64,000 nucleotides of DNA from an uncultured bacterium (GCA_964601505.1 CAZRNR010000006.1:2515-66514); one strand, 5' to 3'. Shown: positions 312-54,065, numbered from the stretch's first letter. Notes: generated by a model not told the origin, from the sequence alone. A program made the numbers and translations.

Positions 312-866
312 TCAACCATATGAGATAATTGATACAACCTTTATTCCTTTTGATTCTATAATTTTTCTTCCGCCAAGCTTTACAAGTTCAACTAAAAAAA
401 CTGAACCTACAACTTTTCCTCCCAGGTCCTCAACAAGCTTTATAGTTGCAGAAATTGTTCCCCCAGTAGCTATCAAGTCATCTACCACTATAACACTTTC
501 TCCTTTTTCAATAGCATCTGTATGAATTTCCACAGTAGCTGTTCCGTATTCAAGACCATACGAATATGATAGCGTTTCATAAGGAAGTTTGCCTTCTTTT
601 CTGACTATGACAAAACCCTTTTTGAACTTATACGCCAGCGGAGAACCAAGTATAAATCCCCTTGACTCAATACTCACAACCTTCTGGAAGTTTTTCGAAC
701 CTATTTCTTTCTCAACTTTGTCGGCAAGCAGATCAATAGCTTTGTGGAAGGTAGAACTGTCCTGAAGCAAAGTGGTCAAGTCATAAAACAGTATACCTTT
801 TTTCGGAAAATCGGGAACTCGCCTTATCTTTTTATCTAACTCATCAATGATTCTGTCGTCAGGCAT
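312..866 (-). CDS. apt: adenine phosphoribosyltransferase
   Basis: 184 aa. PRPP-binding motif VIVVDDLIATGGT and N-terminal FPKKGILFYD, typical of Apt. Lies 52 nt downstream of the rSAM gene on the same strand. Confidence 0.9.
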   Translation of the reverse strand: MPDDRIIDELDKKIRRVPDFPKKGILFYDLTTLLQDSSTFHKAIDLLADKVEKEIGSKNFQKVVSIESRGFILGSPLAYKFKKGFVIVRKEGKLPYETLSYSYGLEYGTATVEIHTDAIEKGESVIVVDDLIATGGTISATIKLVEDLGGKVVGSVFLVELVKLGGRKIIESKGIKVVSIISYG

Positions 867-918
867 ATTTTCTCTTTATTCATCGTAAAAAGATTAATCA
901 GAAAAACAAGAACTTACA

Positions 919-1962
919 CTATATGAACTCAAACTGCCCGATATCTTTTTCTATAAGTTCCTCTATAACCTTGTGATATCTTATAAACCTGCAATCGAAT
1001 AGATTACAGAGTTCCGGATTTATGTTTTTTATTTTATTGATATGCTCCTCTGAACCCCATATATACTGAAATTTATTCTCGTATATGTTTCCGATTTTAT
1101 GTTGTTCCTGTCTATACGAAAAATAACAGCAAAGGAAGATATCTCCCTTTGCATCTATTGTCGTTTGAAGTGGTGTTAGAATACATCTCCTTTGAATTAA
1201 ATTTCTACCATTATATAATATCTTAAAATTGTATCTCTGCTTCAATTCTCTTATCTTTACCTCCAAAGATTTTTCTTCCTGATCAGTCAAAGATTCCTTA
1301 TCTTGCCTAAGCAATTTTATCTGCAAATTATCAAATCCCATCTTTATTGAGAACTCAACCATATTCTCCAGATCATGAATATTGTTCCTTCCAATCAAAA
1401 CCTTCATTCCAAAAACCAAGGTCGGATTATATGCTCTTCTTGAAGAGTTTATTATATTTATTCTATCGCATACCACATCCCAAGCATTTTTGATCTTTGG
1501 CTTTTGAAATTGTAGATAAACTTCCTTGCTTCCAGCATTCATTGTGATCCTTATATAGCGGAGATTTTTAGCTAAAAATTCTGCTAAATCTTCAGACATA
1601 GTTCCATTTGTAAGGATTCCAAAACTAAATCCTTTAGTTTTTCCGTAAGATATGATATCTTTTAGCTTCGGATATAAAGTCGGTTCGCCTCCTCCACAGA
1701 ACTCTATGCCCTCAACTCCTACATCTCCAAGCTCATCTAACAGGGAAATAAACCTCCGGAAATCAAGCATTATTGGTTTTGAATTTAACGAAGAATACTC
1801 ACATCCACAACAGTCATAATTGCAACCATATACAGGATATATAATAGCTGTCCTTGGATATGGTATCTTACCATTGAGTATTTGCTTTATCCTATCGTAA
1901 AATGTTAATATTCTGAGATCTTGAAAGCTTAAAGGATTATTTGAGTTGGATCCATCCATCAT
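919..1962 (-). CDS. radical SAM protein with C-terminal twitch/SPASM-like auxiliary-cluster motif
   Basis: 347 aa. CNYDCCGC matches the CX3CX2C rSAM cluster motif, and GGGEP is SAM-binding-like. The C-terminus has C-X12-G-X4-C (CILTPLQTTIDAKGDIFLC) plus CNLFDC. Confidence 0.85.
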   Translation of the reverse strand: MMDGSNSNNPLSFQDLRILTFYDRIKQILNGKIPYPRTAIIYPVYGCNYDCCGCEYSSLNSKPIMLDFRRFISLLDELGDVGVEGIEFCGGGEPTLYPKLKDIISYGKTKGFSFGILTNGTMSEDLAEFLAKNLRYIRITMNAGSKEVYLQFQKPKIKNAWDVVCDRINIINSSRRAYNPTLVFGMKVLIGRNNIHDLENMVEFSIKMGFDNLQIKLLRQDKESLTDQEEKSLEVKIRELKQRYNFKILYNGRNLIQRRCILTPLQTTIDAKGDIFLCCYFSYRQEQHKIGNIYENKFQYIWGSEEHINKIKNINPELCNLFDCRFIRYHKVIEELIEKDIGQFEFI

Positions 1963-1972
1963 AAAATATTAA

Positions 1973-3436
1973 TCAATATCCTTCCTTGTTTCCTTTTTTT
2001 GTAGCTTTCTGAAATTTATTTAGTATATCTAAGGTATTACCCAGAATAAAACCAAAAAGGAGCTGTAAGGAGAATTTGATTCCTCTTGATTTGACTATAT
2101 TTAATATCCTTGATATTCTTGAATAAAATAACACCACGGCAAGTTTCTGAATCATAACAAGATGGGAAGGTTTAAGTCGTCCTACCCCTATCACAGCAGA
2201 ACCATACCTCCTCATGTCATAACCAGAATAATAAAGCTTTGCTCCCCCTTTCCCCTCGATTACCATATCTCTGAGAACAGTCCCAGGGTATGGAGTCGCT
2301 ATATTGATATATGCAAAATCAAGATCCTTGAGAGAATAAATGAAAGATACTGTCTTCATTATCGTCTTTATGTTCTCATATGGCAAACCTATTATAACTG
2401 ACCCTCTTGTCTCAACACCTAAACTCTTAACTATTTTGTAAGCTCTCTTTATGTCATCATGATTCGTTCCTTTCTGGACCATTTTCAGTATTTCCGGATC
2501 ACCACTTTCTATACCAAAATTTATCCTCTTTAATCCCGCGCGAACCATTTGTTGGGCCAGCTTTTCATCTATTCTATTTGCGACTGTCTCACATTCAAAT
2601 GTGAAACCCAAATTTTCTTCCTCCATAAGTTTGAAAATCTCAAATGCTCTTTTTGGAACAAGAGTAATTGTATCATCTATAAATATGATATGTCCTATCT
2701 CCGGATGCTTTTTCTTTATATGCTTTAGCTCCTGAATAACATTTTCAGGAGACCTAAGCTTAACCTTAGGATATAAGATCCTTTCTGAACAAAAAATACA
2801 GCGCAAAGGGCATCCCCTTGAAGTCTGAAAAGTTGTTGCGATCCTTTCTCCAACTCCAGGAACAAACCATTTATATCTATCTATTTTGAGCTTTTCTCTT
2901 GCCGGGAATGGGATATGGTCAAACTCCATGTCCTCCTTAGGAACACCGGTGTGAATTGTTTCCCCATTCCTTCTGAATATCAGCCCCCCCACGTCTTCTA
3001 TCCTCTTACCGTCCCAAAGAAGTTTTAGAAAGATTGGGAGCCTGATCTCACAGTCGTTTGTAAGGGCAAAATCAAATTCAGGATTTTCATCCAAGACTTG
3101 TTTACCTACCAATGTCGCGTGCGGCCCACCAACTATGATAGGAATTTTGAAATTCTCTTTCACAGCTCTTGCAATCCTTTTTGCTTCTATTATTGTTGGT
3201 GTCGTAGTTGTTATCCCGACAAAATCAGGTTTTTCTCGTTTTATGTAGTTTAATATATCTTCATCTTTTAGTTCCTGAGCTTCACAATCTAAAATATCGG
3301 TATGTATACCCTCTTTCTCACAAGATGAAGCAAGATAACACAGCCCCAAAGGTGGTTCAAAATGCAAAAGTTTTGTTATAAACCTAAAACTGCCGTAAAC
3401 TCTAAGCCACCTTGGGGCTACAAGAAGTAATTTCAT
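1973..3436 (-). CDS. B12-binding domain-containing (class B) radical SAM protein
   Basis: 487 aa. N-terminal Rossmann-like cobalamin-binding region (PIIVGGPHATL). CPLRCIFC matches CX3CX2C. The C-terminus is hydrophobic then Lys-rich. A 10-nt gap separates it from the downstream rSAM gene. Confidence 0.85.
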   Translation of the reverse strand: MKLLLVAPRWLRVYGSFRFITKLLHFEPPLGLCYLASSCEKEGIHTDILDCEAQELKDEDILNYIKREKPDFVGITTTTPTIIEAKRIARAVKENFKIPIIVGGPHATLVGKQVLDENPEFDFALTNDCEIRLPIFLKLLWDGKRIEDVGGLIFRRNGETIHTGVPKEDMEFDHIPFPAREKLKIDRYKWFVPGVGERIATTFQTSRGCPLRCIFCSERILYPKVKLRSPENVIQELKHIKKKHPEIGHIIFIDDTITLVPKRAFEIFKLMEEENLGFTFECETVANRIDEKLAQQMVRAGLKRINFGIESGDPEILKMVQKGTNHDDIKRAYKIVKSLGVETRGSVIIGLPYENIKTIMKTVSFIYSLKDLDFAYINIATPYPGTVLRDMVIEGKGGAKLYYSGYDMRRYGSAVIGVGRLKPSHLVMIQKLAVVLFYSRISRILNIVKSRGIKFSLQLLFGFILGNTLDILNKFQKATKKGNKEGY

Positions 3437-3450
3437 ATCAATTTAAATCA

Positions 3451-3510
3451 TTACTTTTTAACTTTCTTCTTCTTCCCAGCAGTTGGGGCAGGTCTCCAAT
3501 TAACAAACAT
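3451..3510 (-). CDS. small ORF, 19 aa (MFVNWRPAPTAGKKKKVKK); candidate precursor or leader peptide of the rSAM operon
   Basis: Hand translation of the minus strand. ATG at 3510-3508 and TAA at 3453-3451. A perfect SD lies 7 nt upstream. The stop is 14 nt before the ATG of the B12-rSAM gene. Absent from the ORF track because it is under 60 aa. Confidence 0.5.
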   Translation of the reverse strand: MFVNWRPAPTAGKKKKVKK

Positions 3511-3517
3511 TTCCTTA

Positions 3518-3526
3518 CACCTCCTT
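3518..3526 (-). promoter_or_regulatory. Shine-Dalgarno AAGGAGGTG for the 19-codon ORF
   Basis: Reverse complement of cacctcctt, with a 7-nt spacer to the ATG. groEL in this window has the same 9-mer and the same 7-nt spacing (18862-18870). Confidence 0.55.
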
Positions 3527-3859
3527 AAATTCTAATCTAATAATTTTGCTTCAAATTGTGAGAAAAATTAAAATTGCATGTAAAAAACGAAGACGAAAAA
3601 TTATCATGGCATCACAGTTAACTTATTCCAACAAAGAGATATAGAGCTTTGCAAAGCTTAAAACTATCAAGTTCAAGAACTTCTCGAAGAATAGAATTCA
3701 ATCTATCAAAAAATTTCAATTGAGCCAAAGCAGCTAACTTAAAACTAACTTAAAGCATTGATAAAACGATTAATTGTTCGTGATTACATGGCTTTCTTTA
3801 AAATGCAATATTTCGGTTTTCGTTCTACGGTTTTTTCAAAGATTTAGAATTTTTGTTCT

Positions 3860-5602
3860 ATGAAAGTTTCGGATTTTTTTTTGTTTTCATTTAAGGAAGA
3901 GCCAAAGGATGCGGATTCCAAAAGTAATAGAGCAATGCTCAAGGGTGGATATATAAAAAAGGTAGCATCAGGAATATATTCTTTTACTCCGCTTGGATAT
4001 AAGATTCTTTCAAATGTCTCAAGAATAATAAGGGAAGAAATGGAGAAGATCGGTTGCAGAGAAATTCTACTCCCGATGATGACTCCAGCAGATCTTTGGA
4101 AAGAAACAGGTAGGTGGGATATTTACGGAAAGGAACTTATAAGATTCAAAGATAGGCACGAAAGAGATTTCTGTTTAGCACCAACACACGAGGAGATAGT
4201 TGTTGACCTTGTAAGATACTTCATAAAATCCTGGCGCGACCTTCCGTTCTCACTCTTCCAGATTGGCCAGAAGTTCAGAGACGAGCCCAGGCCAAGATTC
4301 GGTGTCATAAGATGCAAAGAATTCATAATGAAAGACGCTTATTCATTTGACAGAACTGAAGAGGAAGCAGAAAAAACATATTGGAAATTCTATCGTTCAT
4401 ACCAGAGAATATTTGAAAGACTCAAGCTTGATGTAATCCCGGTTCAAGCAGCAGTTGGAGCAATAGGAGGAAAATTCTCTCACGAGTTTATATTCCCTAC
4501 AGAGTATGGGGAAGATAGAGTGATCACTTGCTCAAATTGCTCCTATATATCAAAGAAAGAAATATCTGGGTTCTTTCTTGATCTTGATACGTACAGGAGA
4601 AAACTTGAAGATGCCAAAAATAGGATAGATAAGCCAAAAAAAATCCCCACACCAAACACAACAACTGTAGAAAAGCTTGCCGAATTCCTCAAGATACCAA
4701 CTTCAAAAATAATAAAATCTCTTTTTATAAAAACCTCTGGCGGAGAATATATACTTTGCCTTGTCAGGGGAGATAGATTCATTTCAGAAGACAAACTTTC
4801 ATATTTGTTGCACCAGGATTTTCAGATTGTAGATGAAACCGAAGTCAGGCAATTTTTTGGCGCTGGGAAGGGTTTCATAGGTCCCATGAATTTTAAAGGA
4901 AAGATAATAGCAGATAGAACCGTATTAACAGTCCCAGACGGAGTTGTAGGCGCAGATGAAGATGACTTCCACTTTATTAATGTAGTTCCCACAAGAGATT
5001 TTTCATTCACATCTGTTGAGGATATAGCATTAGCTGAAGAAGGAGACATCTGCCCTTCATGCAAAAAAGCTCCTCTGAAGGAGAAAATTGGACTTGAGTT
5101 AGGACATGTTTTTTACCTTGGCTATAAGTACTCGGTACCTATGGAACTGAAATTCGTGGATAAAGATAAGAACACAAAACATGTTGTCATGGGATGCTAT
5201 GGCATAGGAGTCTCAAGAACTGTAGCGGCTATTTTTGAAAAATATGCTGATGAAAAATCTGTAAGACTCCCCTACGAAGTATCTCCTTTCAAAATACACA
5301 TAATACCAATAAACATCAAAGACAAAGAGATAGCAGATATATCTTTTAAGATACATCAAGAATTTGAAGAAATAGCTCTGATAGATGATAGAGAGGACAT
5401 AAGTCCCGGAGAGAAGTTCGCTGATTGTGATCTTTGGGGAAGCCCTATAAAGATTGTTATTGGAAAGCTTTTCAAAGAGCAAAAGAAGATAGAAATATTC
5501 AATAGAATTTCCGGGCAAAGTGATTACGCAACCGCTGAAAACATATCACAGAAGATTCACTTTTTTATATCACAGCTTTTACCCGATTTTAGGAGATCAT
5601 AG
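3860..5602 (+). CDS. proS: proline--tRNA ligase (bacterial type with insertion/editing domain)
   Basis: 580 aa. Class II motifs FRDEPRPRFGVIRCKEF and GCYGIGVSR. Length fits the INS-domain form. Confidence 0.95.
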   Translation: MKVSDFFLFSFKEEPKDADSKSNRAMLKGGYIKKVASGIYSFTPLGYKILSNVSRIIREEMEKIGCREILLPMMTPADLWKETGRWDIYGKELIRFKDRHERDFCLAPTHEEIVVDLVRYFIKSWRDLPFSLFQIGQKFRDEPRPRFGVIRCKEFIMKDAYSFDRTEEEAEKTYWKFYRSYQRIFERLKLDVIPVQAAVGAIGGKFSHEFIFPTEYGEDRVITCSNCSYISKKEISGFFLDLDTYRRKLEDAKNRIDKPKKIPTPNTTTVEKLAEFLKIPTSKIIKSLFIKTSGGEYILCLVRGDRFISEDKLSYLLHQDFQIVDETEVRQFFGAGKGFIGPMNFKGKIIADRTVLTVPDGVVGADEDDFHFINVVPTRDFSFTSVEDIALAEEGDICPSCKKAPLKEKIGLELGHVFYLGYKYSVPMELKFVDKDKNTKHVVMGCYGIGVSRTVAAIFEKYADEKSVRLPYEVSPFKIHIIPINIKDKEIADISFKIHQEFEEIALIDDREDISPGEKFADCDLWGSPIKIVIGKLFKEQKKIEIFNRISGQSDYATAENISQKIHFFISQLLPDFRRS

Positions 5603-16128: not shown

Positions 16129-17220
16129 CTACTTAGATTTTGTTCTTGATTGTTCTACAAGTTCTGATATCCTACCTACCACATCCTTGACCTGCTGGTC
16201 TTTGTCGAGTGTCAGAACAAGTATGAAATCTTTTCCTTCAGAAACTGCTATATTACTTAGACCAAAAAATATGGTTTTTTTCTTGCTCCTCTGATCGTTT
16301 GTTATATATAGGCAACCTTTTGATTCTAAAAAATATGCATCCCCGGCATTGCCGTTGATATCAACATCTAGGAACTGCCTTATAGACGAATATGAACCGA
16401 TATCTGACCATGAAAATTCAGCTGGTATGCAAACCATCTTGTCTGATTTCTCACAAACAGCGTAATCAATAGATATATTAGGTAAAAGTTCATAGGCTTT
16501 CTTTAAATTATGAGCCAGAATAATTGATGGAATGTCTGTGTATTTTTTGAGTTCATCTATTATCGTATCAACCCTAGACATAAAAATTCCACTGTTCCAA
16601 AAGAAAGATTTACTTTCTATAAAAATTTTTGCCTTCTCTTGTGTTGGCTTCTCTGTAAATCTTTTGACTTTAAATGCTTTTTCAGATATTTTGTCTAAAA
16701 CTTCAATATATCCATACCCTGTTTCTGGATATGTTGGTATAACTCCAAAAGTCACGATATAGCCATTTCTTGCTAAATCATAGCCGTTTTTTACAGCTTC
16801 AATAAATTTATCTATTTTTTGAATTTTATGATCTGACGGCATAATGAGTAGAACTGCCTGTTCCCCAAAAGACTTTTTCACCTCAAGAGCAGCAAGGCAA
16901 ATAGCCGGTGCTGTGTTTTTAGCTTGAGGTTCCGGTATTAGATGATATCTTTTCTTTGATCCCCTTATTACTTCTCTTATCTTTCTTGAATGCTTCTGAT
17001 TGCATACTATGAATATGATAGAAGGACCTATTTTAAGTGTTTCAAAAATTGTTTCTGCTCTATTTACGGTCTCCTCAATAAGAGTTTTATCTGAACCAAT
17101 TTTTAGAAGATATTTAGGATTTTCTTCAGTTGAAATTGGGAATAGCCTTTTTCCTCCTCCACCTGCCAGTATTACAGGAACAAGGGGGGGATCTCCCCCC
17201 CAATCTTTATTTTCTATCAT
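16129..17220 (-). CDS. mannose-1-phosphate guanylyltransferase (nucleotidyltransferase only, no cupin/PMI domain)
   Basis: 363 aa. [18 protein letters not shown]-transferase motif. Its start overlaps the groEL stop by 4 nt (ATGA). Confidence 0.85.
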
Positions 17221-18854
17221 ATTTCAGGAGGAGGTGTGGTTGGGAATTTTTCCTCCTTTTTTGGTTTTTCCGCAACGAGTGCTTCAGTGGTAAGGAGAAG
17301 TCCTGCAACGGAAGCTGCATTTTCAAGAGCTATTCTTTCAACCTTCAGAGGATCTATTATTCCAGCTTTGAGCATATCGTCTCTGAATTCACCGCGCAGA
17401 GCATCAAAACCGAAGTTCGGTTTTGATTTGAGTTCGTTTTTTATCTTTTCAACTATTACTGACCCCTCATATCCTGCATTCCTTGCGATCCACTTCACAG
17501 GTTCCTCAAGAGCTTCCTTGACTATCTTTATACCGAGCTTCTCATCATCATTTTGTTCTTTCTTGAGAAGTTCCTCAAGAGCTAGTGAAGCCTTTAAGAG
17601 AGATACACCACCACCGGGAACTATTCCTTCATCAACAGCTGCTTTAGTAGCATTGACAGCATCCTCTACTCTCATTTTCTTCTCCTTCATAGCTGGTTCT
17701 GTTGGAGCTCCAACATAGATAACTGCAACACCACCAGCAAGCTTAGCAAGTCTCTCCTGTAGTTTTTCTCTATCATAATCAGAAGTTGTCTCCTGAATTG
17801 CTTTCTTTATCTGGGATATTCTTCCTTCTATTTCGCTCTTCTTACCTGCCCCACCTATTATTGTTGTGTGTTCCTTATCTACGATTATCTTCTTAGCTCT
17901 GCCAAGGTCTTTTACCTGAACATTTTCCAATTTTATACCGAGCTCCTCGGCTATGAACCTTCCACCAGTGAGTATCGCTATGTCTTCCATCATAGCCTTC
18001 CTTCTTTCTCCAAAACCAGGAGCCTTCACCGCACAGCACTTTATAACTCCTCTTATTTTGTTCACAACAAGAGTAGCAAGCGCTTCACCTTCAACATCCT
18101 CAGATATTACCAGAAGTGGTTTCCCCTCCCTCACAACCTGCTCAAGGAGCGGGACAAGATCCTTCACTGCTGATATCTTCTTTTCGTATATAAGTATGTA
18201 AGCATCCTCCAGAACAGCCTCCATCCTTTCTGGGTCTGTGACAAAGTAAGGAGAGAGATATCCTCTGTCAAACTGCATACCCTCAACAGATTCCCATGTA
18301 GTTTCGGTTCCCTTAGCTTCTTCTATTGTAACAACACCTTCCTTGCCAACCTTCTCTATTGCATCCGCAACTATTTTTCCTATCTCTTCATCCTGGTTAG
18401 AAGCTATGCGTGCAACACTCTCAACTTCATCACGATTCTTTATGTCCTTTTTCATCTTTCTAAGCTCTTCTACTGCCACCTTAACAGCCTTACTTATTCC
18501 GTTCCTCAGACTAACTGGATTAACACCCGCAGCTATGAGTTTTATACCCTTATTGAATATAGATTGAGCAAGGACTGCAGATGTTGTTGTTCCATCTCCA
18601 GCTAAGTCATTAGTTTTCGAGCAAACCTCCCTGATGAGCTGAGCACCAAGGTTTTCGAACTTGTCTTCAAGCTCTATCTCTTTTGCGACAGTTACTCCAT
18701 CTCTCGTGACCACAGGGGCACCGAAAGTTTTTTCAAGTATAACATTTCTTCCCCCGGGTCCAAGTGTTGATTTAACCGCGTTTGCTATTTTATCAACACC
18801 CCTTTGTATTTTTTCCCTTGCTTCTATATCAAAAAGTATCTCTTTTGCAGCCAT
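17217..18854 (-). CDS. groL: chaperonin GroEL
   Basis: 545 aa. [15 protein letters not shown] and GGGVALL-type motifs throughout. SD AAGGAGGTG. The C-terminus is [14 protein letters not shown] rather than a GGM repeat. Confidence 0.97.
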
Positions 18855-18880: not shown

Positions 18881-19192
18881 TTATTTTTCAACTATTCCAA
18901 GAATTTCATCCTCAGACATAATTAGGTATTCCTGGCCATCTATCTTTATTTCTGTTCCAGCATAGCGAGCAAAAAGAACCTTATCACCAACCTTAACATC
19001 CGGAGGGATAACCTTACCATCCTGAAGTATCTTTCCCTTTCCTACAGCTATCACTTCTCCCATCTGTGGCTTTTCCTTTGCCGTATCCGGGATTATTATC
19101 CCCCCAGGGGTTTTTTCTTCAACTTCCTCCAACCTTTTTACAACTACTTTATCTCTTAACGGTCTTATTTTTGTGAATCCTTTTTCAGCCAT
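18881..19192 (-). CDS. groS: co-chaperonin GroES
   Basis: 103 aa. [12 protein letters not shown] ... [13 protein letters not shown] mobile loop. SD AAGGAGGT. Confidence 0.95.
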
Positions 19193-26960: not shown

Positions 26961-27926
26961 ATGGTAAGATTAGAAAAGGGTTCAGCACTAATAATTGTAG
27001 ATGTTCAGAATGATTTTATGCCTGGAGGAGCTCTAGCGGTACCTGATGGAGATAAAATAATCAGCCAGATAAACAGATATATAGAGAGGTTCAAGGGACA
27101 CAACATCTTTGCCACATGCGATTGGCATCCGGAAAATCACATATCCTTTCAACAAAGGGGTGGGCCTTGGCCACCGCATTGTATCCAGAACACCGAAGGA
27201 GCTAAGTTCCACAAAGACCTAAAGCTCCCAGAGAATACAAACATAATAAAGAAGGCTTCTGACCCAGATAAGGATGCGTATTCAGGCTTTGAAGGAACAG
27301 AATTAGCAAGCAAATTGAAGGATCTTGGAGTTAATACTCTCTTTATTTGTGGGGTAGCTACAGAATACTGCGTAAAAAACACTGTCCTTGATGCCCTGAA
27401 AAATGGATTTAAAACCTACTTACTTACTGACGCTATAAGAGGGATAAATGAAGCTGACTCTCAAAAAGCTATAGAAGAGATGAAACAAGCTGGAGCTGAA
27501 ACCTTGGAGATAAAAGACATTGAGCCTACCGAAAAAGCCGATAAGGTTATGGAGAAAGCGAAGGAGATAATAAAAGAAGTAACCGAACAAGTTATGAAGG
27601 ATGTCTCAAGGGAAATTAGAAAAAAATCCATAAAAATTTCAAAAGATATTAAAAAAATTGTAAAAAAATCTAAAAAAGATATAAAGAAATTTTTAAGCAA
27701 GAAAAAAGGAGTAAAAGAAGCAGATTTTGTAGCTGAAACTATAAGGAAGGTAGTAGATTCCCTCAAAGGTAAGAAGGTTAGTAAAGAAAGGGGGAAGATT
27801 TCGCCCCGAGGTCTGACCCGGGGCAAAACAAAGAATAAAAAAGGAGGTGGGAAAACTATGGCTACTACTAAAAAAGGTAGTGCAAAAGCAAAACAAAAAG
27901 CAAAAAGCAAAAAAGCGAAAAAATAA
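26961..27926 (+). CDS. pncA: nicotinamidase/isochorismatase-family hydrolase with a ~130-aa Lys-rich C-terminal extension
   Basis: 321 aa. IIVDVQNDF, DWHP.NH and the catalytic-Cys region FICGVATEYCV lie in the first ~190 aa. The rest is a low-complexity K/E/A-rich tail. Confidence 0.8.
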   Translation: MVRLEKGSALIIVDVQNDFMPGGALAVPDGDKIISQINRYIERFKGHNIFATCDWHPENHISFQQRGGPWPPHCIQNTEGAKFHKDLKLPENTNIIKKASDPDKDAYSGFEGTELASKLKDLGVNTLFICGVATEYCVKNTVLDALKNGFKTYLLTDAIRGINEADSQKAIEEMKQAGAETLEIKDIEPTEKADKVMEKAKEIIKEVTEQVMKDVSREIRKKSIKISKDIKKIVKKSKKDIKKFLSKKKGVKEADFVAETIRKVVDSLKGKKVSKERGKISPRGLTRGKTKNKKGGGKTMATTKKGSAKAKQKAKSKKAKK

Positions 27927-27975: not shown

Positions 27976-29049
27976 ATGAAGATCTGCATAGTTGCCGGTG
28001 GAACAGGTGGGCATATAGCTCCCGCACTTGCTGTCGCTGAAAAGATAGAACGAGAAGAAAAATTTTTCATAACCGGCAAATCTCGTGCAAGTGAAAAAAG
28101 ATTCATCAAAAATATAGATGCCAAAGAAATACAATATATAGATGTAAAACCGATTGTCGGAAAAGGTCTGAAATCTGCTCTCGGATTTTTCTCCTCATTC
28201 TTATCATTAAAAGAGTCCTATGAAATTCTCAAAAAAATAAATCCAGATGTCGTTATCGGCTTTGGTGGATATGTATCTGGCCCGGTATGCCTTGCCGGGA
28301 AAATCTTGAAAAAGAAAGTCTTTATACACGAGCAAAACTCAGTTATGGGATTTACGAACAAAGTTGCATCTTTATTTTCAGATAAAGTATTCACTTCTTT
28401 CAAAGAAACGGAAGCTCCTATGTTATTAAAGAAAAAATTCGTGTATTCCTCTTTCCCGCTGCGCAATAAGTTCAAAGAAGATCTCCAACGCGGACTTGAG
28501 AAAAAAAATGATTCAGATAAACTAACCATATTTGTCTCTGGAGGAAGTCAAGGAGCTGTTGGACTCAATAAACTTTTTGTGGAAACTATTGAAAAAATAG
28601 CCAAAGTTTTCCCGAATATAAGAAACCACCTAAAGATTTTTCATCAAACAGGAGATCTTTCATTTGATTTTGTTCATAATTCTCTTTCTTCTTGGAACGC
28701 AGAAGTTTTTCCTTTCACTGATGATTTTGGATTTTTCCTTGGTATGTGTGATATTGCTATATCAAGAGGAGGTGCAGGAACCGTATTCGAAATCGCATTT
28801 TCAAAAAAAGTAGCTATTTTTGTTCCACTGCCAAAATCTGCTGGAGGACACCAGGAGAAAAATCCCAGATATCTCCTTAGTGATTCGTGTTTTATTGTAA
28901 GGCAGTATGAAAAACACAAATTTGAGATAAATCTATCTGACCTCATAATGAATGAAGGTTTGAGGAGAGACTTTGCAGAAAAACTCAAAGATATTCATGT
29001 AGAAGATGGTTCATTCCGTATTTTGAATTTTGTGCGGGAAAGAGGATGA
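27976..29049 (+). CDS. murG: UDP-N-acetylglucosamine--N-acetylmuramyl-(pentapeptide) pyrophosphoryl-undecaprenol GlcNAc transferase
   Basis: 357 aa. GGTGGHIAPALAVAE and the GT28 C-terminal region SRGGAGTVFE. Confidence 0.9.
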   Translation: MKICIVAGGTGGHIAPALAVAEKIEREEKFFITGKSRASEKRFIKNIDAKEIQYIDVKPIVGKGLKSALGFFSSFLSLKESYEILKKINPDVVIGFGGYVSGPVCLAGKILKKKVFIHEQNSVMGFTNKVASLFSDKVFTSFKETEAPMLLKKKFVYSSFPLRNKFKEDLQRGLEKKNDSDKLTIFVSGGSQGAVGLNKLFVETIEKIAKVFPNIRNHLKIFHQTGDLSFDFVHNSLSSWNAEVFPFTDDFGFFLGMCDIAISRGGAGTVFEIAFSKKVAIFVPLPKSAGGHQEKNPRYLLSDSCFIVRQYEKHKFEINLSDLIMNEGLRRDFAEKLKDIHVEDGSFRILNFVRERG

Positions 29050-53360: not shown

Positions 53361-54065
53361 ATGAGAGGGAAGAGGTATTATGAGAATTTAAAGCTAATAG
53401 ATAGGACCAAGAGATATTCTCTTCATGAGGCATTGGAAACTTTAAAGAAGTTGAAGACGAAATTTGACGAAACAGTAGAAGTGCATGTAAAGCTTGGGAT
53501 AGATCCAAAAAGAACAGATCAGGCAGTAAGAGGAAGCGCCGTACTGCCACAGGGGACTGGGAAACCCAAGAGAGTCCTTGTCATAACTAAGGGAGAAAAG
53601 ATAAAGGAAGCATCTCAGGCAGGTGCAGATGAGGTAAAAGATGAGTCATTCATAAAAGAGATTTTAGAAAAGAAGCAGGCTCCGGAATTTGATGTCATAA
53701 TTGCAACACCAGATGTTATGGGAGAGATATCAAAAGCCGGGAAAATCTTAGGTCCCAAGGGTCTCATGCCGAATCCAAAATCCGGGACACTTACAACAGA
53801 TATCAAAAAGGCGGTGCAAGATGCCAAAAAGGGTATGGTTGAAATAAAAACAGATAAAGGTGGATGCATTCATGCTCCATGCGGTAAGATTTCCTGGGAA
53901 CTAGAAAAGCTGGAAGAAAACATTGAGAGCTTTATAAAAACCCTGGTTTCACTCAAACCTCCAACAGCTAAAGGAAACTTCATCAGGAGTATCACTGTAG
54001 CCTCAACGCATAGTCCCGGTATCAAAATAGATCCGAACTCTATATTCAGAAAGAAATCTAAGTAA
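53361..54065 (+). CDS. rplA: 50S ribosomal protein L1
   Basis: 234 aa. FDETVEVHVKLGIDP ... DQAVRG and GKILGPKGLMPNPKSGT. SD AAGGAGGT. No adjacent rplK or rplJ. Confidence 0.93.
   Translation: MRGKRYYENLKLIDRTKRYSLHEALETLKKLKTKFDETVEVHVKLGIDPKRTDQAVRGSAVLPQGTGKPKRVLVITKGEKIKEASQAGADEVKDESFIKEILEKKQAPEFDVIIATPDVMGEISKAGKILGPKGLMPNPKSGTLTTDIKKAVQDAKKGMVEIKTDKGGCIHAPCGKISWELEKLEENIESFIKTLVSLKPPTAKGNFIRSITVASTHSPGIKIDPNSIFRKKSK

What the first reader, a model, noticed from the sequence alone, without database searches (positions are those of the whole stretch)
312..3526. Candidate RiPP-type cassette: short peptide + class-B (B12) rSAM + twitch/SPASM-like rSAM (+ apt)
Four co-directional genes have gaps of 14, 10 and 52 nt.
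- A 19-aa peptide.
- A 487-aa protein with an N-terminal cobalamin-binding-type domain and CX3CX2C.
- A 347-aa rSAM with CX3CX2C plus a C-terminal C-X12-G-X4-C and a further Cys pair. CX9-15GX4C is the hallmark of twitch/SPASM auxiliary-cluster domains.
- apt.

SPASM/twitch rSAMs are the classic peptide maturases (streptide, darobactin, sactipeptides, triceptides, PQQ, mycofactocin). Class-B rSAMs C-methylate RiPPs such as bottromycin and polytheonamide.

The peptide has no Cys, so any chemistry would be C-C or C-O crosslinking and/or C-methylation rather than thioether formation. I do not recognise this peptide as a described precursor family. Apt could salvage adenine derived from the 5'-deoxyadenosine by-product, but that link is speculative.

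An alternative reading is that the rSAM pair acts on a lipid or cofactor. The B12-rSAM has a hydrophobic C-terminus, and rSAM enzymes make membrane-spanning lipids in thermophiles. In that case the small ORF would be regulatory or fortuitous.
Basis: partly seen in the sequence, partly recalled or inferred. Interest (0 to 1): 0.85.

Follow-up and report, generated by a model that had tools for sequence, protein, structure and literature searches.

The report
Small peptide gene before radical-SAM pair
A hot-spring bacterium has a real, conserved 19-residue lysine-rich peptide gene directly ahead of two radical-SAM enzyme genes, but in other bacteria these enzymes sit with sugar-transferring enzymes and no peptide, so reading the cassette as a peptide natural-product pathway is possible but not the best-supported one.

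Summary
All four genes lie on the minus strand: a 19-aa ORF (MFVNWRPAPTAGKKKKVKK), a 487-aa B12-domain rSAM, a 347-aa rSAM with a partial SPASM domain, and apt. The gaps are 14, 10 and 52 nt.

The small ORF is a real gene:
- It recurs in four sequence variants upstream of orthologous enzymes (75-99% identical), all from relatives of Ca. Calescibacterium.
- WRPAP, KKKK-x-KK and the Shine-Dalgarno site are invariant, differences in the WRPAP codons are synonymous, and the flanks are unalignable.
- Its 9-nt SD equals GroEL's in a genome where strong SDs are rare.

The RiPP reading is only partly supported:
- Neither enzyme reaches any curated maturase family cut-off, and there is no RRE, protease or exporter.
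- The two enzymes belong to a widespread uncharacterised pair family. Its recurrent partners elsewhere are an ArnC/PpgS-like GT2, PMT_2-type GT-C enzymes, NUDIX and nucleoside phosphorylase, never a peptide.
- The peptide clade is nested among GT-associated clades and keeps 65/69 and 64/66 family-conserved residues.
- The closest solved relatives are the sugar-tailoring enzymes BlsE and AprD4.

Best reading (0.45): a sugar or glycolipid-tailoring rSAM pair plus a lineage-specific, highly translated upstream ORF. Leaderless RiPP or cofactor precursor: 0.3. apt is not a conserved part.

The parts
3518..3526 (-). Shine-Dalgarno site AAGGAGGTG, 7 nt upstream of the small ORF's ATG
   Evidence: Read from the sequence. 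GGAGGTG is invariant in all four variants while the flanks diverge. AAGGAGGTG occurs only 4 times in the 64-kb window, and one copy precedes GroEL.
3451..3510 (-). Small ORF, 19 aa: MFVNWRPAPTAGKKKKVKK (stop TAA, followed by TGA)
   Evidence: Translation. Orthologous variants: MFVNWRPAPMGGKKKKGKK (L001/L002), MIINWRPAPLSGKKKKIKK (L067), MIAGWRPAPQPSKKKKKAKK (L003), and an identical copy in L066. Differences in the WRPAP codons are synonymous. The overlapping +1 frame (TTG at 3506) is not conserved at the protein level.
1973..3436 (-). B12-binding-domain (class B type) radical SAM protein, 487 aa, with CX3CX2C at C209/C213/C216 and a long C-terminal helix (residues 441-484)
   Evidence: Pfam PF02310 + PF04055. 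No NCBIfam family reaches its cut-off; the best are Sden_1168 166/575 and HpnJ 165/578. It belongs to a coherent family with 31 invariant columns. AF2 model pLDDT 92.5. Best fold match is AprD4, TM 0.74/0.79. Best sequence match among solved structures is AprD4, E 2.9e-22.
919..1962 (-). Radical SAM protein with a partial SPASM (twitch-like) C-terminal domain, 347 aa
   Evidence: Pfam PF04055 + PF13186. No NCBIfam family reaches its cut-off; the best is W_rSAM_matur 80/380. The family alignment has 51 invariant columns including C47, C51, C54, C89, C260, C278, C279, C319 and C324. AF2 pLDDT 91.5. Best two-way fold match is BlsE, TM 0.70/0.74, rmsd 3.9. Best sequence match among solved structures is BlsE, E 5e-07.
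312..866 (-). apt (adenine phosphoribosyltransferase): adjacent and co-directional, but not a conserved member of the module
   Evidence: NCBIfam apt equivalogs 217-218 bits, above cut-off. It follows the pair in the window, L001/L002 and L066. In L003 and L006/L007 a convergent second B12-rSAM follows instead.
3555..3584 (-). Promoter-like site TTTACA-18-CACAAT upstream of the small ORF (weak, consensus match only)
   Evidence: The number of such sites in the region is not above the shuffled expectation, so this is only a candidate. No Rfam family or riboswitch matches 3400-3900.

Best explanation
The two radical SAM genes are a co-evolving enzyme pair from a widespread, uncharacterised family. 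The family tailors a sugar-type small molecule: most likely a polyprenyl-phosphate-linked or nucleotide-linked sugar destined for a cell-envelope glycoconjugate. It does not tailor a peptide.

Inferred chemistry:
- The partial-SPASM enzyme abstracts a hydrogen atom from the sugar and carries out a BlsE/DesII-type oxidation, decarboxylation or epimerisation. It would use one auxiliary cluster.
- The B12-domain enzyme carries out either a C-methylation or an AprD4/HpnJ-type radical rearrangement or dehydration on the same scaffold.

In Calescibacterium-like thermophiles the pair has lost its usual adjacent GT2 gene. It has gained, directly upstream, a lineage-specific 19-codon ORF with a GroEL-grade ribosome-binding site. 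That ORF is really translated and its amino-acid sequence is under selection. It is most likely an upstream element of the operon, either expression control through its nascent WRPAP...Lys-rich peptide or a small accessory peptide, rather than the enzymes' substrate. apt is a neighbouring housekeeping gene.

Shown: gene structure, conservation of the small ORF, family membership at superfamily level only, genomic context across about 45 loci, and retention of family-conserved residues.

Inferred: the substrate class, the reaction types and the role of the small ORF.
For: 1. Family context.
- In the nearest outgroups (42-46% identity for both enzymes) the pair sits in GT2-SPASM-B12 or PMT_2 | B12-GT2-SPASM operons, or next to UbiA plus PMT_2-like membrane proteins. 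No small ORF is present.
- Among 127 nearest non-rSAM neighbours from about 40 non-redundant loci, the top Pfam families are Glycos_transf_2 (8), PMT_2 (8), NUDIX (6), Glyco_tranf_2_3 (3), PNP_UDP_1 (2) and Glyco_trans_1_2 (2). No RRE, protease or ABC exporter is among the listed families.
- Some family members are fused to a GT2 domain (P0151, P0153, P0157).
- The GT2 partner resembles the polyprenyl-phosphate glycosyltransferases ArnC, AglJ and PpgS, all below their cut-offs.

2. In a neighbour-joining tree the peptide clade is nested among GT2/PMT_2-associated clades. Its basal members L003 and L006/L007 still carry a convergent second B12-rSAM, and L006/L007 a PMT_2 gene.

3. There is no sign of a functional shift. 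The peptide clade keeps 65/69 (SPASM) and 64/66 (B12) of the positions that are at least 90% conserved in the rest of the family. The number of clade-specific replacements (4 and 2) lies within the range of control clades, 0-4 and 1-10. No extra domain is present and lengths are the same.

4. The closest solved relatives are sugar-tailoring enzymes.
- SPASM enzyme: BlsE by sequence and by best two-way TM-score.
- B12 enzyme: AprD4 by sequence and by fold.
- HpnJ, a B12-type rSAM proposed to rearrange a lipid-linked glucosamine made by a GT2 (PMC13459092), is among the best NCBIfam hits.

5. Nothing RiPP-specific is found. There is no maturase equivalog, no PqqD/RRE hit at E<=0.01, and no leader/core layout. 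Scans found no comparable strong-SD small ORF in any non-Calescibacterium locus.
Against: - The small ORF is conserved at the amino-acid level and has the strongest class of SD in the window.
- It stays glued to the B12-rSAM gene although the upstream neighbour differs between the window/L001 (proS), L003 and L067. This is exactly what a precursor peptide would look like.
- In L067 a terminator-like hairpin separates it from the enzyme gene, as in many RiPP operons.
- The spacing to the enzyme gene varies from 14 to about 120 nt. That argues against a geometry-dependent cis-regulatory mechanism.
- No GT2 or PMT_2 gene lies near the pair within the 64-kb window.
- No member of either enzyme family has been characterised, so the substrate class rests on context and remote similarity.
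- The fold search also returns peptide maturases (SuiB, SkfB, CteB, anSME) with similar E-values.
Confidence: 0.45

Rival explanations
1. Leaderless RiPP or peptide-derived cofactor. The 19-mer is the substrate. The B12-rSAM C-methylates it (candidate sites are the invariant Trp5, Arg6, Pro7 and Pro9). The partial-SPASM rSAM installs a C-C or C-N crosslink, for example from Trp5 to a Lys. The product stays intracellular, like PQQ or mycofactocin, or acts as a cationic peptide. The enzyme pair would have been recruited from a sugar-tailoring family.
For: - The small ORF is conserved in four variants with an invariant WRPAP and Lys tail and synonymous-only changes in the WRPAP core.
- It has a GroEL-grade SD, implying stoichiometric rather than catalytic amounts.
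- It is linked to the enzymes across upstream rearrangements.
- L067 has a terminator-like hairpin after the ORF.
- The SPASM-type fold is shared with SuiB, SkfB, CteB, anSME and PqqE.
- B12-rSAM hits include ApyD, the rSAM_ocin_1 family and the MCR glutamine methylase, all below cut-off.
Against: - The enzyme families extend far beyond the peptide's distribution, with GT2/PMT_2 partners and no peptide.
- The peptide clade shows no functional-shift signature.
- There is no RRE, leader, protease or exporter.
- The SPASM domain is partial.
- A pattern scan of JGI metagenomes for WRPAP-x3-KKKK found only 7 chance matches, none a short ORF with a start codon next to a radical SAM gene.
Confidence: 0.3
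2. The small ORF encodes an independent, abundant small basic protein, for example a lineage-specific ribosome- or nucleic-acid-associated peptide. From my own knowledge, this would be comparable to the very small Lys/Arg-rich ribosomal proteins bTHX, bS22 and bL37. Its position upstream of the rSAM pair would be synteny retained among close relatives. The enzymes act on a sugar-type substrate as in the best explanation.
For: - The peptide is extremely basic and not hydrophobic, and its SD is of the class used by GroES/GroEL.
- The distance to the enzyme gene varies, and L067 has a possible terminator of its own.
- The peptide is confined to one narrow lineage.
Against: - Linkage to the B12-rSAM survives in all four variants although everything upstream has changed.
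- In the window only 14 nt separate its stop codon from the enzyme's start, and there is no terminator.
Confidence: 0.2
3. The small ORF is a fortuitous reading frame or a non-coding regulatory RNA element.
For: A 19-codon ORF arises easily by chance in AT-rich DNA. No protein database entry exists for it.
Against: - Start codon, stop codon, frame and SD are conserved in four variants.
- Third-position variation occurs within invariant codons, while the flanks are unalignable.
- The alternative overlapping frame is not conserved.
- No Rfam match and no conserved secondary structure.
Confidence: 0.03

Closest known systems
BlsE (cytosylglucuronate decarboxylase, blasticidin S pathway; PDB 7vob) and DesII
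   Same: - Radical SAM core plus a C-terminal Cys-containing SPASM-type (PF13186) region.
- Similar size (327 vs 347 aa), with no RRE.
- Best sequence hit among solved structures (E 5e-07).
- Best two-way TM-score, 0.70/0.74, rmsd 3.9.
- They act on nucleoside- or nucleotide-linked sugars, matching the glycosyltransferase and nucleotide-handling neighbours of the family.
   Different: - Only about 15% identity.
- The NCBIfam BlsE and DesII models score 34 and 28 bits against cut-offs of 400 and 450.
- Different gene neighbourhood.
- No small ORF is known next to blsE (my own knowledge).
AprD4 (radical SAM 1,2-diol dehydratase acting on paromamine; PDB 6fd2)
   Same: - N-terminal Rossmann, B12-binding-like domain plus a radical SAM barrel of the same length.
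- Best sequence hit (E 2.9e-22) and best fold hit (TM 0.74/0.79).
- Sugar substrate.
   Different: - About 20% identity.
- The NCBIfam AprD4 model scores 92 bits against a cut-off of 500.
- Whether the window protein binds cobalamin cannot be tested here.
HpnI/HpnK/HpnJ module of hopanoid side-chain biosynthesis
   Same: A GT2 glycosyltransferase works with a B12-domain radical SAM enzyme that is proposed to rearrange a lipid-linked amino sugar (PMC13459092). HpnJ is the second-best NCBIfam hit for the window protein and the best for its relatives.
   Different: - Scores of 165-187 bits against a cut-off of 578, so it is not an HpnJ equivalog.
- No hopanoid genes in the window.
- HpnJ has no SPASM partner.
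ArnC/ArnT-type and GtrB/Gtr-type polyprenyl-phosphate glycosylation systems (GT2 donor synthase plus GT-C transferase)
   Same: In relatives the rSAM pair is embedded between an ArnC/AglJ/PpgS-like GT2 and a PMT_2-type GT-C.
   Different: - The known systems contain no radical SAM enzymes (my own knowledge).
- In the window itself neither GT gene is adjacent.
SPASM/twitch peptide maturases with short precursors (PqqA/PqqE, MftA/MftC, SuiA/SuiB, SkfA/SkfB)
   Same: A short ORF lies directly upstream of a SPASM-type radical SAM gene. The fold is shared. PqqA is of comparable length (my own knowledge).
   Different: - No RRE or PqqD-like partner.
- The SPASM Cys pattern is partial.
- All maturase models score far below cut-off (PqqE 39/381, MftC 44/265, StsB 50/625, WgkB 40/650).
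- The enzyme family does not co-vary with the peptide outside one genus-level clade.

Membership tests
RiPP biosynthetic cassette (generic) | Short precursor gene adjacent to and co-directional with the modifying enzyme | tested here: met
   The 19-aa ORF lies 14 nt upstream of the B12-rSAM. It is conserved in four variants.
RiPP biosynthetic cassette (generic) | The modifying enzyme belongs to a recognised peptide-maturase family or carries an RRE/PqqD-like recognition element | tested here: not met
   No NCBIfam maturase model is near its cut-off. Pfam finds only B12-binding, Radical_SAM and SPASM at E<=0.01. The N-terminus before CX3CX2C is only 46 residues.
RiPP biosynthetic cassette (generic) | Peptide and enzyme co-occur across the enzyme family's distribution | tested here: not met
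   Co-occurrence holds only in Calescibacterium-like contigs (window, L001/L002, L003, L066, L067). It is absent from about 45 other loci.
RiPP biosynthetic cassette (generic) | Leader/core organisation, leader protease, exporter or immunity gene | tested here: not met
   The peptide has only 19 residues. The neighbours are proS, apt and, in L066, a ribonucleotide reductase. No peptidase or ABC family is enriched among neighbours.
RiPP biosynthetic cassette (generic) | Enzyme-dependent post-translational modification of the peptide | not testable with these tools
   This needs co-expression or in vitro assays with HR-MS/MS.
SPASM/twitch radical SAM subfamily | CX3CX2C radical SAM cluster motif | tested here: met
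   C47, C51 and C54 are invariant in 22 family members.
SPASM/twitch radical SAM subfamily | C-terminal domain matching PF13186 above the gathering score | tested here: met
   36.6 bits against 21.5, residues 266-324.
SPASM/twitch radical SAM subfamily | Full seven-Cys SPASM pattern (CX9-15GX4C ... CX2CX5CX3C ... C) for two auxiliary clusters | tested here: not met
   Only C260-X12-G-X4-C278/C279 and C319-X4-C324 are present and invariant. There is no CX2CX5CX3C block (and the sequence), so at most one auxiliary cluster is expected (twitch-like).
Class B (cobalamin-dependent) radical SAM enzymes | N-terminal B12-binding (Rossmann) domain plus a radical SAM domain | tested here: met
   PF02310 at 77 bits and PF04055 at 107 bits. 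The fold matches AprD4, TsrM, OxsB, MgmA, CysS and TokK.
Class B (cobalamin-dependent) radical SAM enzymes | Actual cobalamin binding and methyl transfer | not testable with these tools
   The closest solved relative, AprD4, is a dehydratase and not a methylase. Spectroscopy or an activity assay is needed.
HpnJ / BchE / ApyD / Sden_1168 equivalogs | Score at or above the curated NCBIfam cut-off | tested here: not met
   Scores against cut-offs: 165/578, 142/481, 136/750 and 166/575.
Adenine phosphoribosyltransferase (apt) | Score at or above the curated NCBIfam cut-off | tested here: met
   TIGR01090 scores 217.5 against 185.9, and NF002636 scores 218.5 against 125.
GT2 + GT-C polyprenyl-phosphate glycosylation module with an rSAM pair (uncharacterised; defined here from context) | GT2 and/or PMT_2 gene adjacent to the rSAM pair | tested here: not met
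   Present in relatives: L006-L011, L013, L016, L018, L070 and L071. No such gene is adjacent to the pair, and tblastn with the relatives' GT2 and PMT_2 proteins finds nothing in the 64-kb window. The rest of the genome is not available.

The most novel reading that the evidence does not exclude
The 19-residue WRPAP/oligo-lysine peptide is a leaderless substrate of a B12-domain rSAM and a partial-SPASM rSAM that were recruited from a sugar-tailoring family. This would give a new class of radical-SAM-modified peptide, or peptide-derived cofactor, in hyperthermophilic Calescibacteria. Possible modifications are C-methylation of Trp, Arg or Pro plus a Trp-Lys crosslink. It would be made without an RRE, a leader or a protease.
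Probability: 0.28. Interest if true: 0.8.

Novelty: new variant of a known kind. Interest (0 to 1): 0.55.

Why it matters
Two things are worth having, whichever reading is right.

First, the B12-domain rSAM and partial-SPASM rSAM pair is a widespread family with no characterised member. A profile of the SPASM partner finds 1,355 clusters (at 50% identity) with E<=1e-30. Its recurrent partners, an ArnC/PpgS-like GT2 and PMT_2-type GT-C enzymes, point to an undescribed radical tailoring step on lipid-linked or nucleotide-linked sugars of the cell envelope. The family occurs in Thermodesulfobacteriota, Hydrogenedentota, Omnitrophota and others.

Second, in Calescibacterium the same pair is headed by a strongly translated, sequence-conserved 19-mer.
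- If the peptide is the substrate, this documents a recent switch of a radical SAM pair from a sugar to a peptide, and a new leaderless RiPP or cofactor.
- If it is not, it is a clean case showing that a small ORF next to SPASM and B12 radical SAM genes is not enough to call a RiPP. That matters for genome-mining pipelines.

Tried and rejected
- Curated families. NCBIfam and Pfam scans of both enzymes reached no equivalog cut-off, so HpnJ, BchE, ApyD, PhpK, PqqE, MftC, StsB, WgkB, Tes and the tungsten-cofactor maturase were rejected as assignments.
- Riboswitch or leader RNA. There is no Rfam hit in 3400-3900 or in the orthologous loci. No conserved hairpin follows the ORF; only L067 has a terminator-like stem.
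- More copies of the peptide. A degenerate DNA pattern for WRPAP-x3-KKKK scanned against JGI metagenome contigs gave 7 matches. All are chance hits, mostly in high-GC contigs, and none is a short ORF with a start codon next to a radical SAM gene. The motif WRPAP finds nothing relevant in the literature.
- Other small ORFs in relatives. A scan of all fetched loci for intergenic 10-60-aa ORFs with an SD match of 6 nt or more found nothing comparable outside the Calescibacterium contigs.
- Alternative frame. The overlapping TTG-started ORF at 3506 (22 aa) is not conserved at the protein level in L001.
- A second 'K-rich mini-ORF with strong SD' at 27858. It turned out to be the in-frame C-terminal Lys-rich tail of a 321-aa nicotinamidase-like ORF, so it is not a parallel case.
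- apt as part of the module. Rejected because apt is absent next to the pair in L003 and L006.
- Membrane-spanning-lipid synthase. The Tes model scores 38 bits against a cut-off of 450, and no lipid-synthase genes are in the neighbourhood.
- Fold searches could not separate peptide maturases from sugar enzymes for the SPASM protein.
- A peptide-enzyme complex prediction was not attempted, because only window or database sequences can be submitted.

Full report
**Observation.**
- A 19-codon ORF lies at 3451..3510 and encodes MFVNWRPAPTAGKKKKVKK.
- A 487-aa protein is encoded at 1973..3436.
- A 347-aa protein is encoded at 919..1962.
- A 184-aa protein is encoded at 312..866.
- The gaps are 14, 10 and 52 nt.

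Pfam assigns B12-binding + Radical_SAM to the first enzyme and Radical_SAM + SPASM to the second. NCBIfam identifies the last gene as apt, above cut-off. proS is divergently transcribed from 3860. No riboswitch or other Rfam family lies in the 330-nt intergenic region.

**Is the small ORF real?** Yes.
- Contigs carrying orthologues of the B12-rSAM at 99, 84, 80 and 75% identity were fetched. Each has the ORF just upstream of the B12-rSAM gene:
  - MFVNWRPAPTAGKKKKVKK (window, L066)
  - MFVNWRPAPMGGKKKKGKK (L001/L002)
  - MIINWRPAPLSGKKKKIKK (L067)
  - MIAGWRPAPQPSKKKKKAKK (L003)
- In the DNA alignment, the SD GGAGGTG, the ATG, the frame and the stop are conserved. The Pro7, Ala8 and Pro9 codons differ only at third positions.
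- 42 of 75 SD+ORF positions are invariant, against 10 of the 95 upstream positions. The flanks cannot be aligned.
- The overlapping +1 frame is not conserved.
- Linkage to the enzyme gene persists although the upstream neighbour changes. It is proS in the window and L001, and other sequence in L003 and L067.
- The ORF has the full 9-nt SD AAGGAGGTG. Only 3 of 52 long ORFs in the window have an SD match of 6 nt or more: GroEL, GroES and one other. High translation is therefore likely.
- GroEL is 94% identical to that of Ca. Calescibacterium MAGs. The host is therefore a hot-spring Calescamantes-type thermophile, a group described in PMC4791363.

**What are the enzymes?**
- Neither reaches the cut-off of any curated NCBIfam family.
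  - For the B12-domain protein the best hits are Sden_1168 (166 bits against a cut-off of 575), HpnJ (165/578), BchE (142/481) and ApyD (136/750).
  - For the SPASM protein the best hits are the tungsten-cofactor maturase (80/380), TYW1, StsB, MftC, PqqE, WgkB, Tes, BlsE and DesII, all very far below their cut-offs.
- Both proteins nevertheless belong to tight, well-conserved families.
  - 22 SPASM-type homologues at 35-81% identity share 51 invariant columns and a C-terminal QFEFI-like end.
  - 26 B12-type homologues share 31 invariant columns.
  - A profile of the SPASM family finds 1,355 clusters (at 50% identity) with E<=1e-30 in 1.84 billion representatives.
- The SPASM domain is partial. 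The CX2CX5CX3C block is absent, so at most one auxiliary cluster is expected (inference from the Cys pattern).
- AlphaFold models are confident, with pLDDT 91.5 and 92.5.
- By sequence, the nearest solved structures are BlsE, TYW1 and viperin-like enzymes for the SPASM protein, and AprD4, MgmA (PDB 9ccb, named), OxsB and TokK for the B12 protein.
- By fold, the SPASM protein matches both peptide maturases (SuiB, SkfB, CteB, anSME, PqqE) and sugar or nucleotide enzymes (DesII, BlsE, viperin). The best two-way TM-score is to BlsE, at 0.70/0.74.
- By fold, the B12 protein matches AprD4 best, at 0.74/0.79.

**Genomic context across the family.** This is the most informative evidence.
- 47 loci from species-representative genomes plus metagenome contigs were compared.
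- A B12-domain rSAM accompanies the SPASM protein in 42 of 58 loci (including redundant ones), often in two or three copies.
- In the nearest outgroups of both enzymes (42-46% identity) the arrangements are:
  - PMT_2 | B12-GT2-SPASM in Smithella-type loci L008-L010, L013 and L016
  - GT2-SPASM-B12 in L071
  - B12 → ← SPASM ← GT2-like ← B12, followed by GT2, rSAM and LGT-like genes, in L070
  - UbiA, PMT_2, a PMT_2-like protein and SPASM → ← B12 and two large unknown proteins, in L011 and L012
- Some homologues are fused to a GT2 domain.
- The GT2 partner is most similar to ArnC, AglJ and PpgS, which are polyprenyl-phosphate glycosyltransferases.
- A census of 127 nearest non-rSAM neighbours gave Glycos_transf_2 (8), PMT_2 (8), NUDIX (6), Glyco_tranf_2_3 (3), PNP_UDP_1 (2) and Glyco_trans_1_2 (2). 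No RRE, peptidase or ABC exporter family is among the listed families.
- More distant members sit with Maf-type and GT1 glycosyltransferases in Desulfarculaceae. In Firmicutes they sit with PNP, NDK, a dTMP-kinase-like protein and a PPDK_N-type enzyme.
- None of these loci has the WRPAP peptide or any comparable strong-SD small ORF.
- In a neighbour-joining tree the peptide-bearing clade is nested among the GT2/PMT_2-associated clades.
- The basal members of the peptide clade, L003 and L006/L007, still have a convergent second B12-rSAM downstream of the SPASM gene. L006/L007 also has a PMT_2 gene.

**Has the peptide clade changed function?** No such signal was found.
- It retains 65 of 69 (SPASM) and 64 of 66 (B12) positions that are at least 90% conserved in the rest of each family.
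- The number of clade-specific replacements (4 and 2) is within the range of control clades, 0-4 and 1-10.
- There are no added domains.
- The simplest inference is that the enzymes do the same chemistry on the same kind of substrate as their GT-associated relatives, where no peptide is encoded.

**Interpretation.**
- Best explanation (0.45). The pair tailors a sugar, either polyprenyl-phosphate-linked or nucleotide-linked. The SPASM enzyme would do a BlsE/DesII-like radical oxidation, decarboxylation or epimerisation. The B12-domain enzyme would do a methylation or an AprD4/HpnJ-like rearrangement. The precedent of a GT2 working with a B12-type rSAM on a lipid-linked amino sugar (HpnI/HpnJ) is summarised in PMC13459092. 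The small ORF would then be a lineage-specific, highly translated upstream element of the operon. It could be an expression-control or nascent-peptide element, or a small accessory peptide. The substrate class, the reaction types and the ORF's role are inferences.
- Rival 1 (0.3). The peptide is a leaderless RiPP or cofactor precursor. Everything about the ORF itself fits this: conservation, the SD, the tight linkage and a terminator-like hairpin after it in L067. Only the enzyme-side evidence speaks against it.
- Rival 2 (0.2). The peptide is an independent abundant small basic protein, for example ribosome-associated, that has kept its position next to the pair.
- Chance ORF (0.03). This is effectively excluded.
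- apt is not a conserved member of the module. It follows the pair only in the window, L001/L002 and L066.

**Comparison with known systems.**
- The cassette looks like a PqqA/PqqE-type or SuiA/SuiB-type locus. It fails the tested membership criteria apart from 'short ORF next to a SPASM-type enzyme'.
- The enzymes work most like BlsE/DesII and AprD4/HpnJ, but are not members of those families either.
- The GT2 plus GT-C context of relatives resembles ArnC/ArnT-type or GtrB/Gtr-type polyprenyl-phosphate glycosylation. The inserted radical SAM pair has no characterised counterpart that I know of.

**Verdict.**
- Novelty: a new variant of a known kind, namely a radical SAM tailoring operon, here with an unprecedented conserved mini-ORF.
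- Interest is 0.55. The peptide question can be decided by one co-expression experiment. The enzyme pair family is a widespread uncharacterised system likely to reveal new radical sugar or glycolipid chemistry.

Noticed in passing
L006:5432-5820 (NCBI GCA_026418515.1, JAOABE010000002.1), with L007:1-29 and L067:2824-2858: A 29-nt direct repeat (AACCAGACCCGTACATAAGGGGATTGCGA), present in 6 copies at 66-76-nt spacing and looking like a small CRISPR array, lies directly upstream of the SPASM gene in this relative. The 3' end of the separate contig that carries the peptide and B12-rSAM (L067) overlaps L006 by only 35 nt, at 5089-5123. In the MAG that overlap is preceded by ligA. This could be strain heterogeneity or an assembly branch point, with the array inserted between the two rSAM genes.
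   Followed up: partly
window, whole (52 long ORFs); GroEL 17217-18854(-), GroES 18881-19192(-), ORF 53361-54065(+): Strong Shine-Dalgarno sites are rare in this genome. Only GroEL, GroES, one 234-aa ORF and the 19-aa ORF have a match of 6 nt or more to AAGGAGGTG. 39 of 52 long ORFs have 3 nt or less.
   Followed up: yes
window:26961-27926 (+), upstream of murG at 27976-29049: A nicotinamidase/pyrazinamidase-like protein (domain in residues 8-190) carries a C-terminal extension of about 130 residues that is extremely Lys-rich and of low complexity. It ends in ...MATTKKGSAKAKQKAKSKKAKK and contains an internal SD-like AAAGGAGGTG. It is followed by a G/C hairpin with a T-run before murG.
   Followed up: partly
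Proteins P0151, P0153, P0157; P0364, P0413, P0420, P0433, P0445, P0460, P0465: Some members of the SPASM-rSAM family are fused to a GT2 domain (583-598 aa). Others are embedded in very large proteins (1,431-6,428 aa), several with up to 6 matched stretches.
   Followed up: no
L048:7162-15685, L051:6878-14786, L052, L053 (Alkaliphilus, Lachnospiraceae): Distant family members in Firmicutes sit in a conserved cluster with a PNP_UDP_1 phosphorylase, a membrane protein of about 410 aa with no Pfam hit, a PPDK_N/PEP-utilizer enzyme, NDK and a thymidylate-kinase-like protein. This looks like a pathway for a modified nucleoside or nucleotide.
   Followed up: partly
L043:5908-12422 and L046 (Desulfarculaceae): Three paralogous SPASM-type rSAM genes lie in a row next to a Maf-type (MptE-like/Maf_flag10_N) flagellin glycosyltransferase and a Glyco_trans_1_2 protein. 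This suggests radical tailoring of a flagellin glycan.
   Followed up: partly
L019:4764-11974, L025, L026, L029, L031 and other Hydrogenedentota loci: A conserved order is seen: HflX-like GTPase, NUDIX, B12-rSAM, one or two tandem copies of a 140-205-aa lipoprotein-like protein with no Pfam hit (lipobox-like LGCATSKG), SPASM-rSAM, B12-rSAM, B12-rSAM. The tandem lipoprotein-like genes could be substrates or partners.
   Followed up: no
L004:1-10407 (contig of P0006, 46% identical B12-rSAM): The closest non-Calescibacterium B12-rSAM homologue lies among three further B12-rSAM paralogues and another radical SAM gene, a UbiA prenyltransferase, a protein with a faint squalene-hopene-cyclase C-terminal hit, and a GDPD phosphodiesterase. 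No SPASM partner lies within 6 kb. This is a lipid-type context.
   Followed up: no
L067:1290-1322: A terminator-like hairpin (GAGUUUGAAG-AGAA-CUUCAAAUUU followed by AUUUUUAUU) lies between the small ORF and the B12-rSAM in this relative only. The window and L001 have no structure there.
   Followed up: partly
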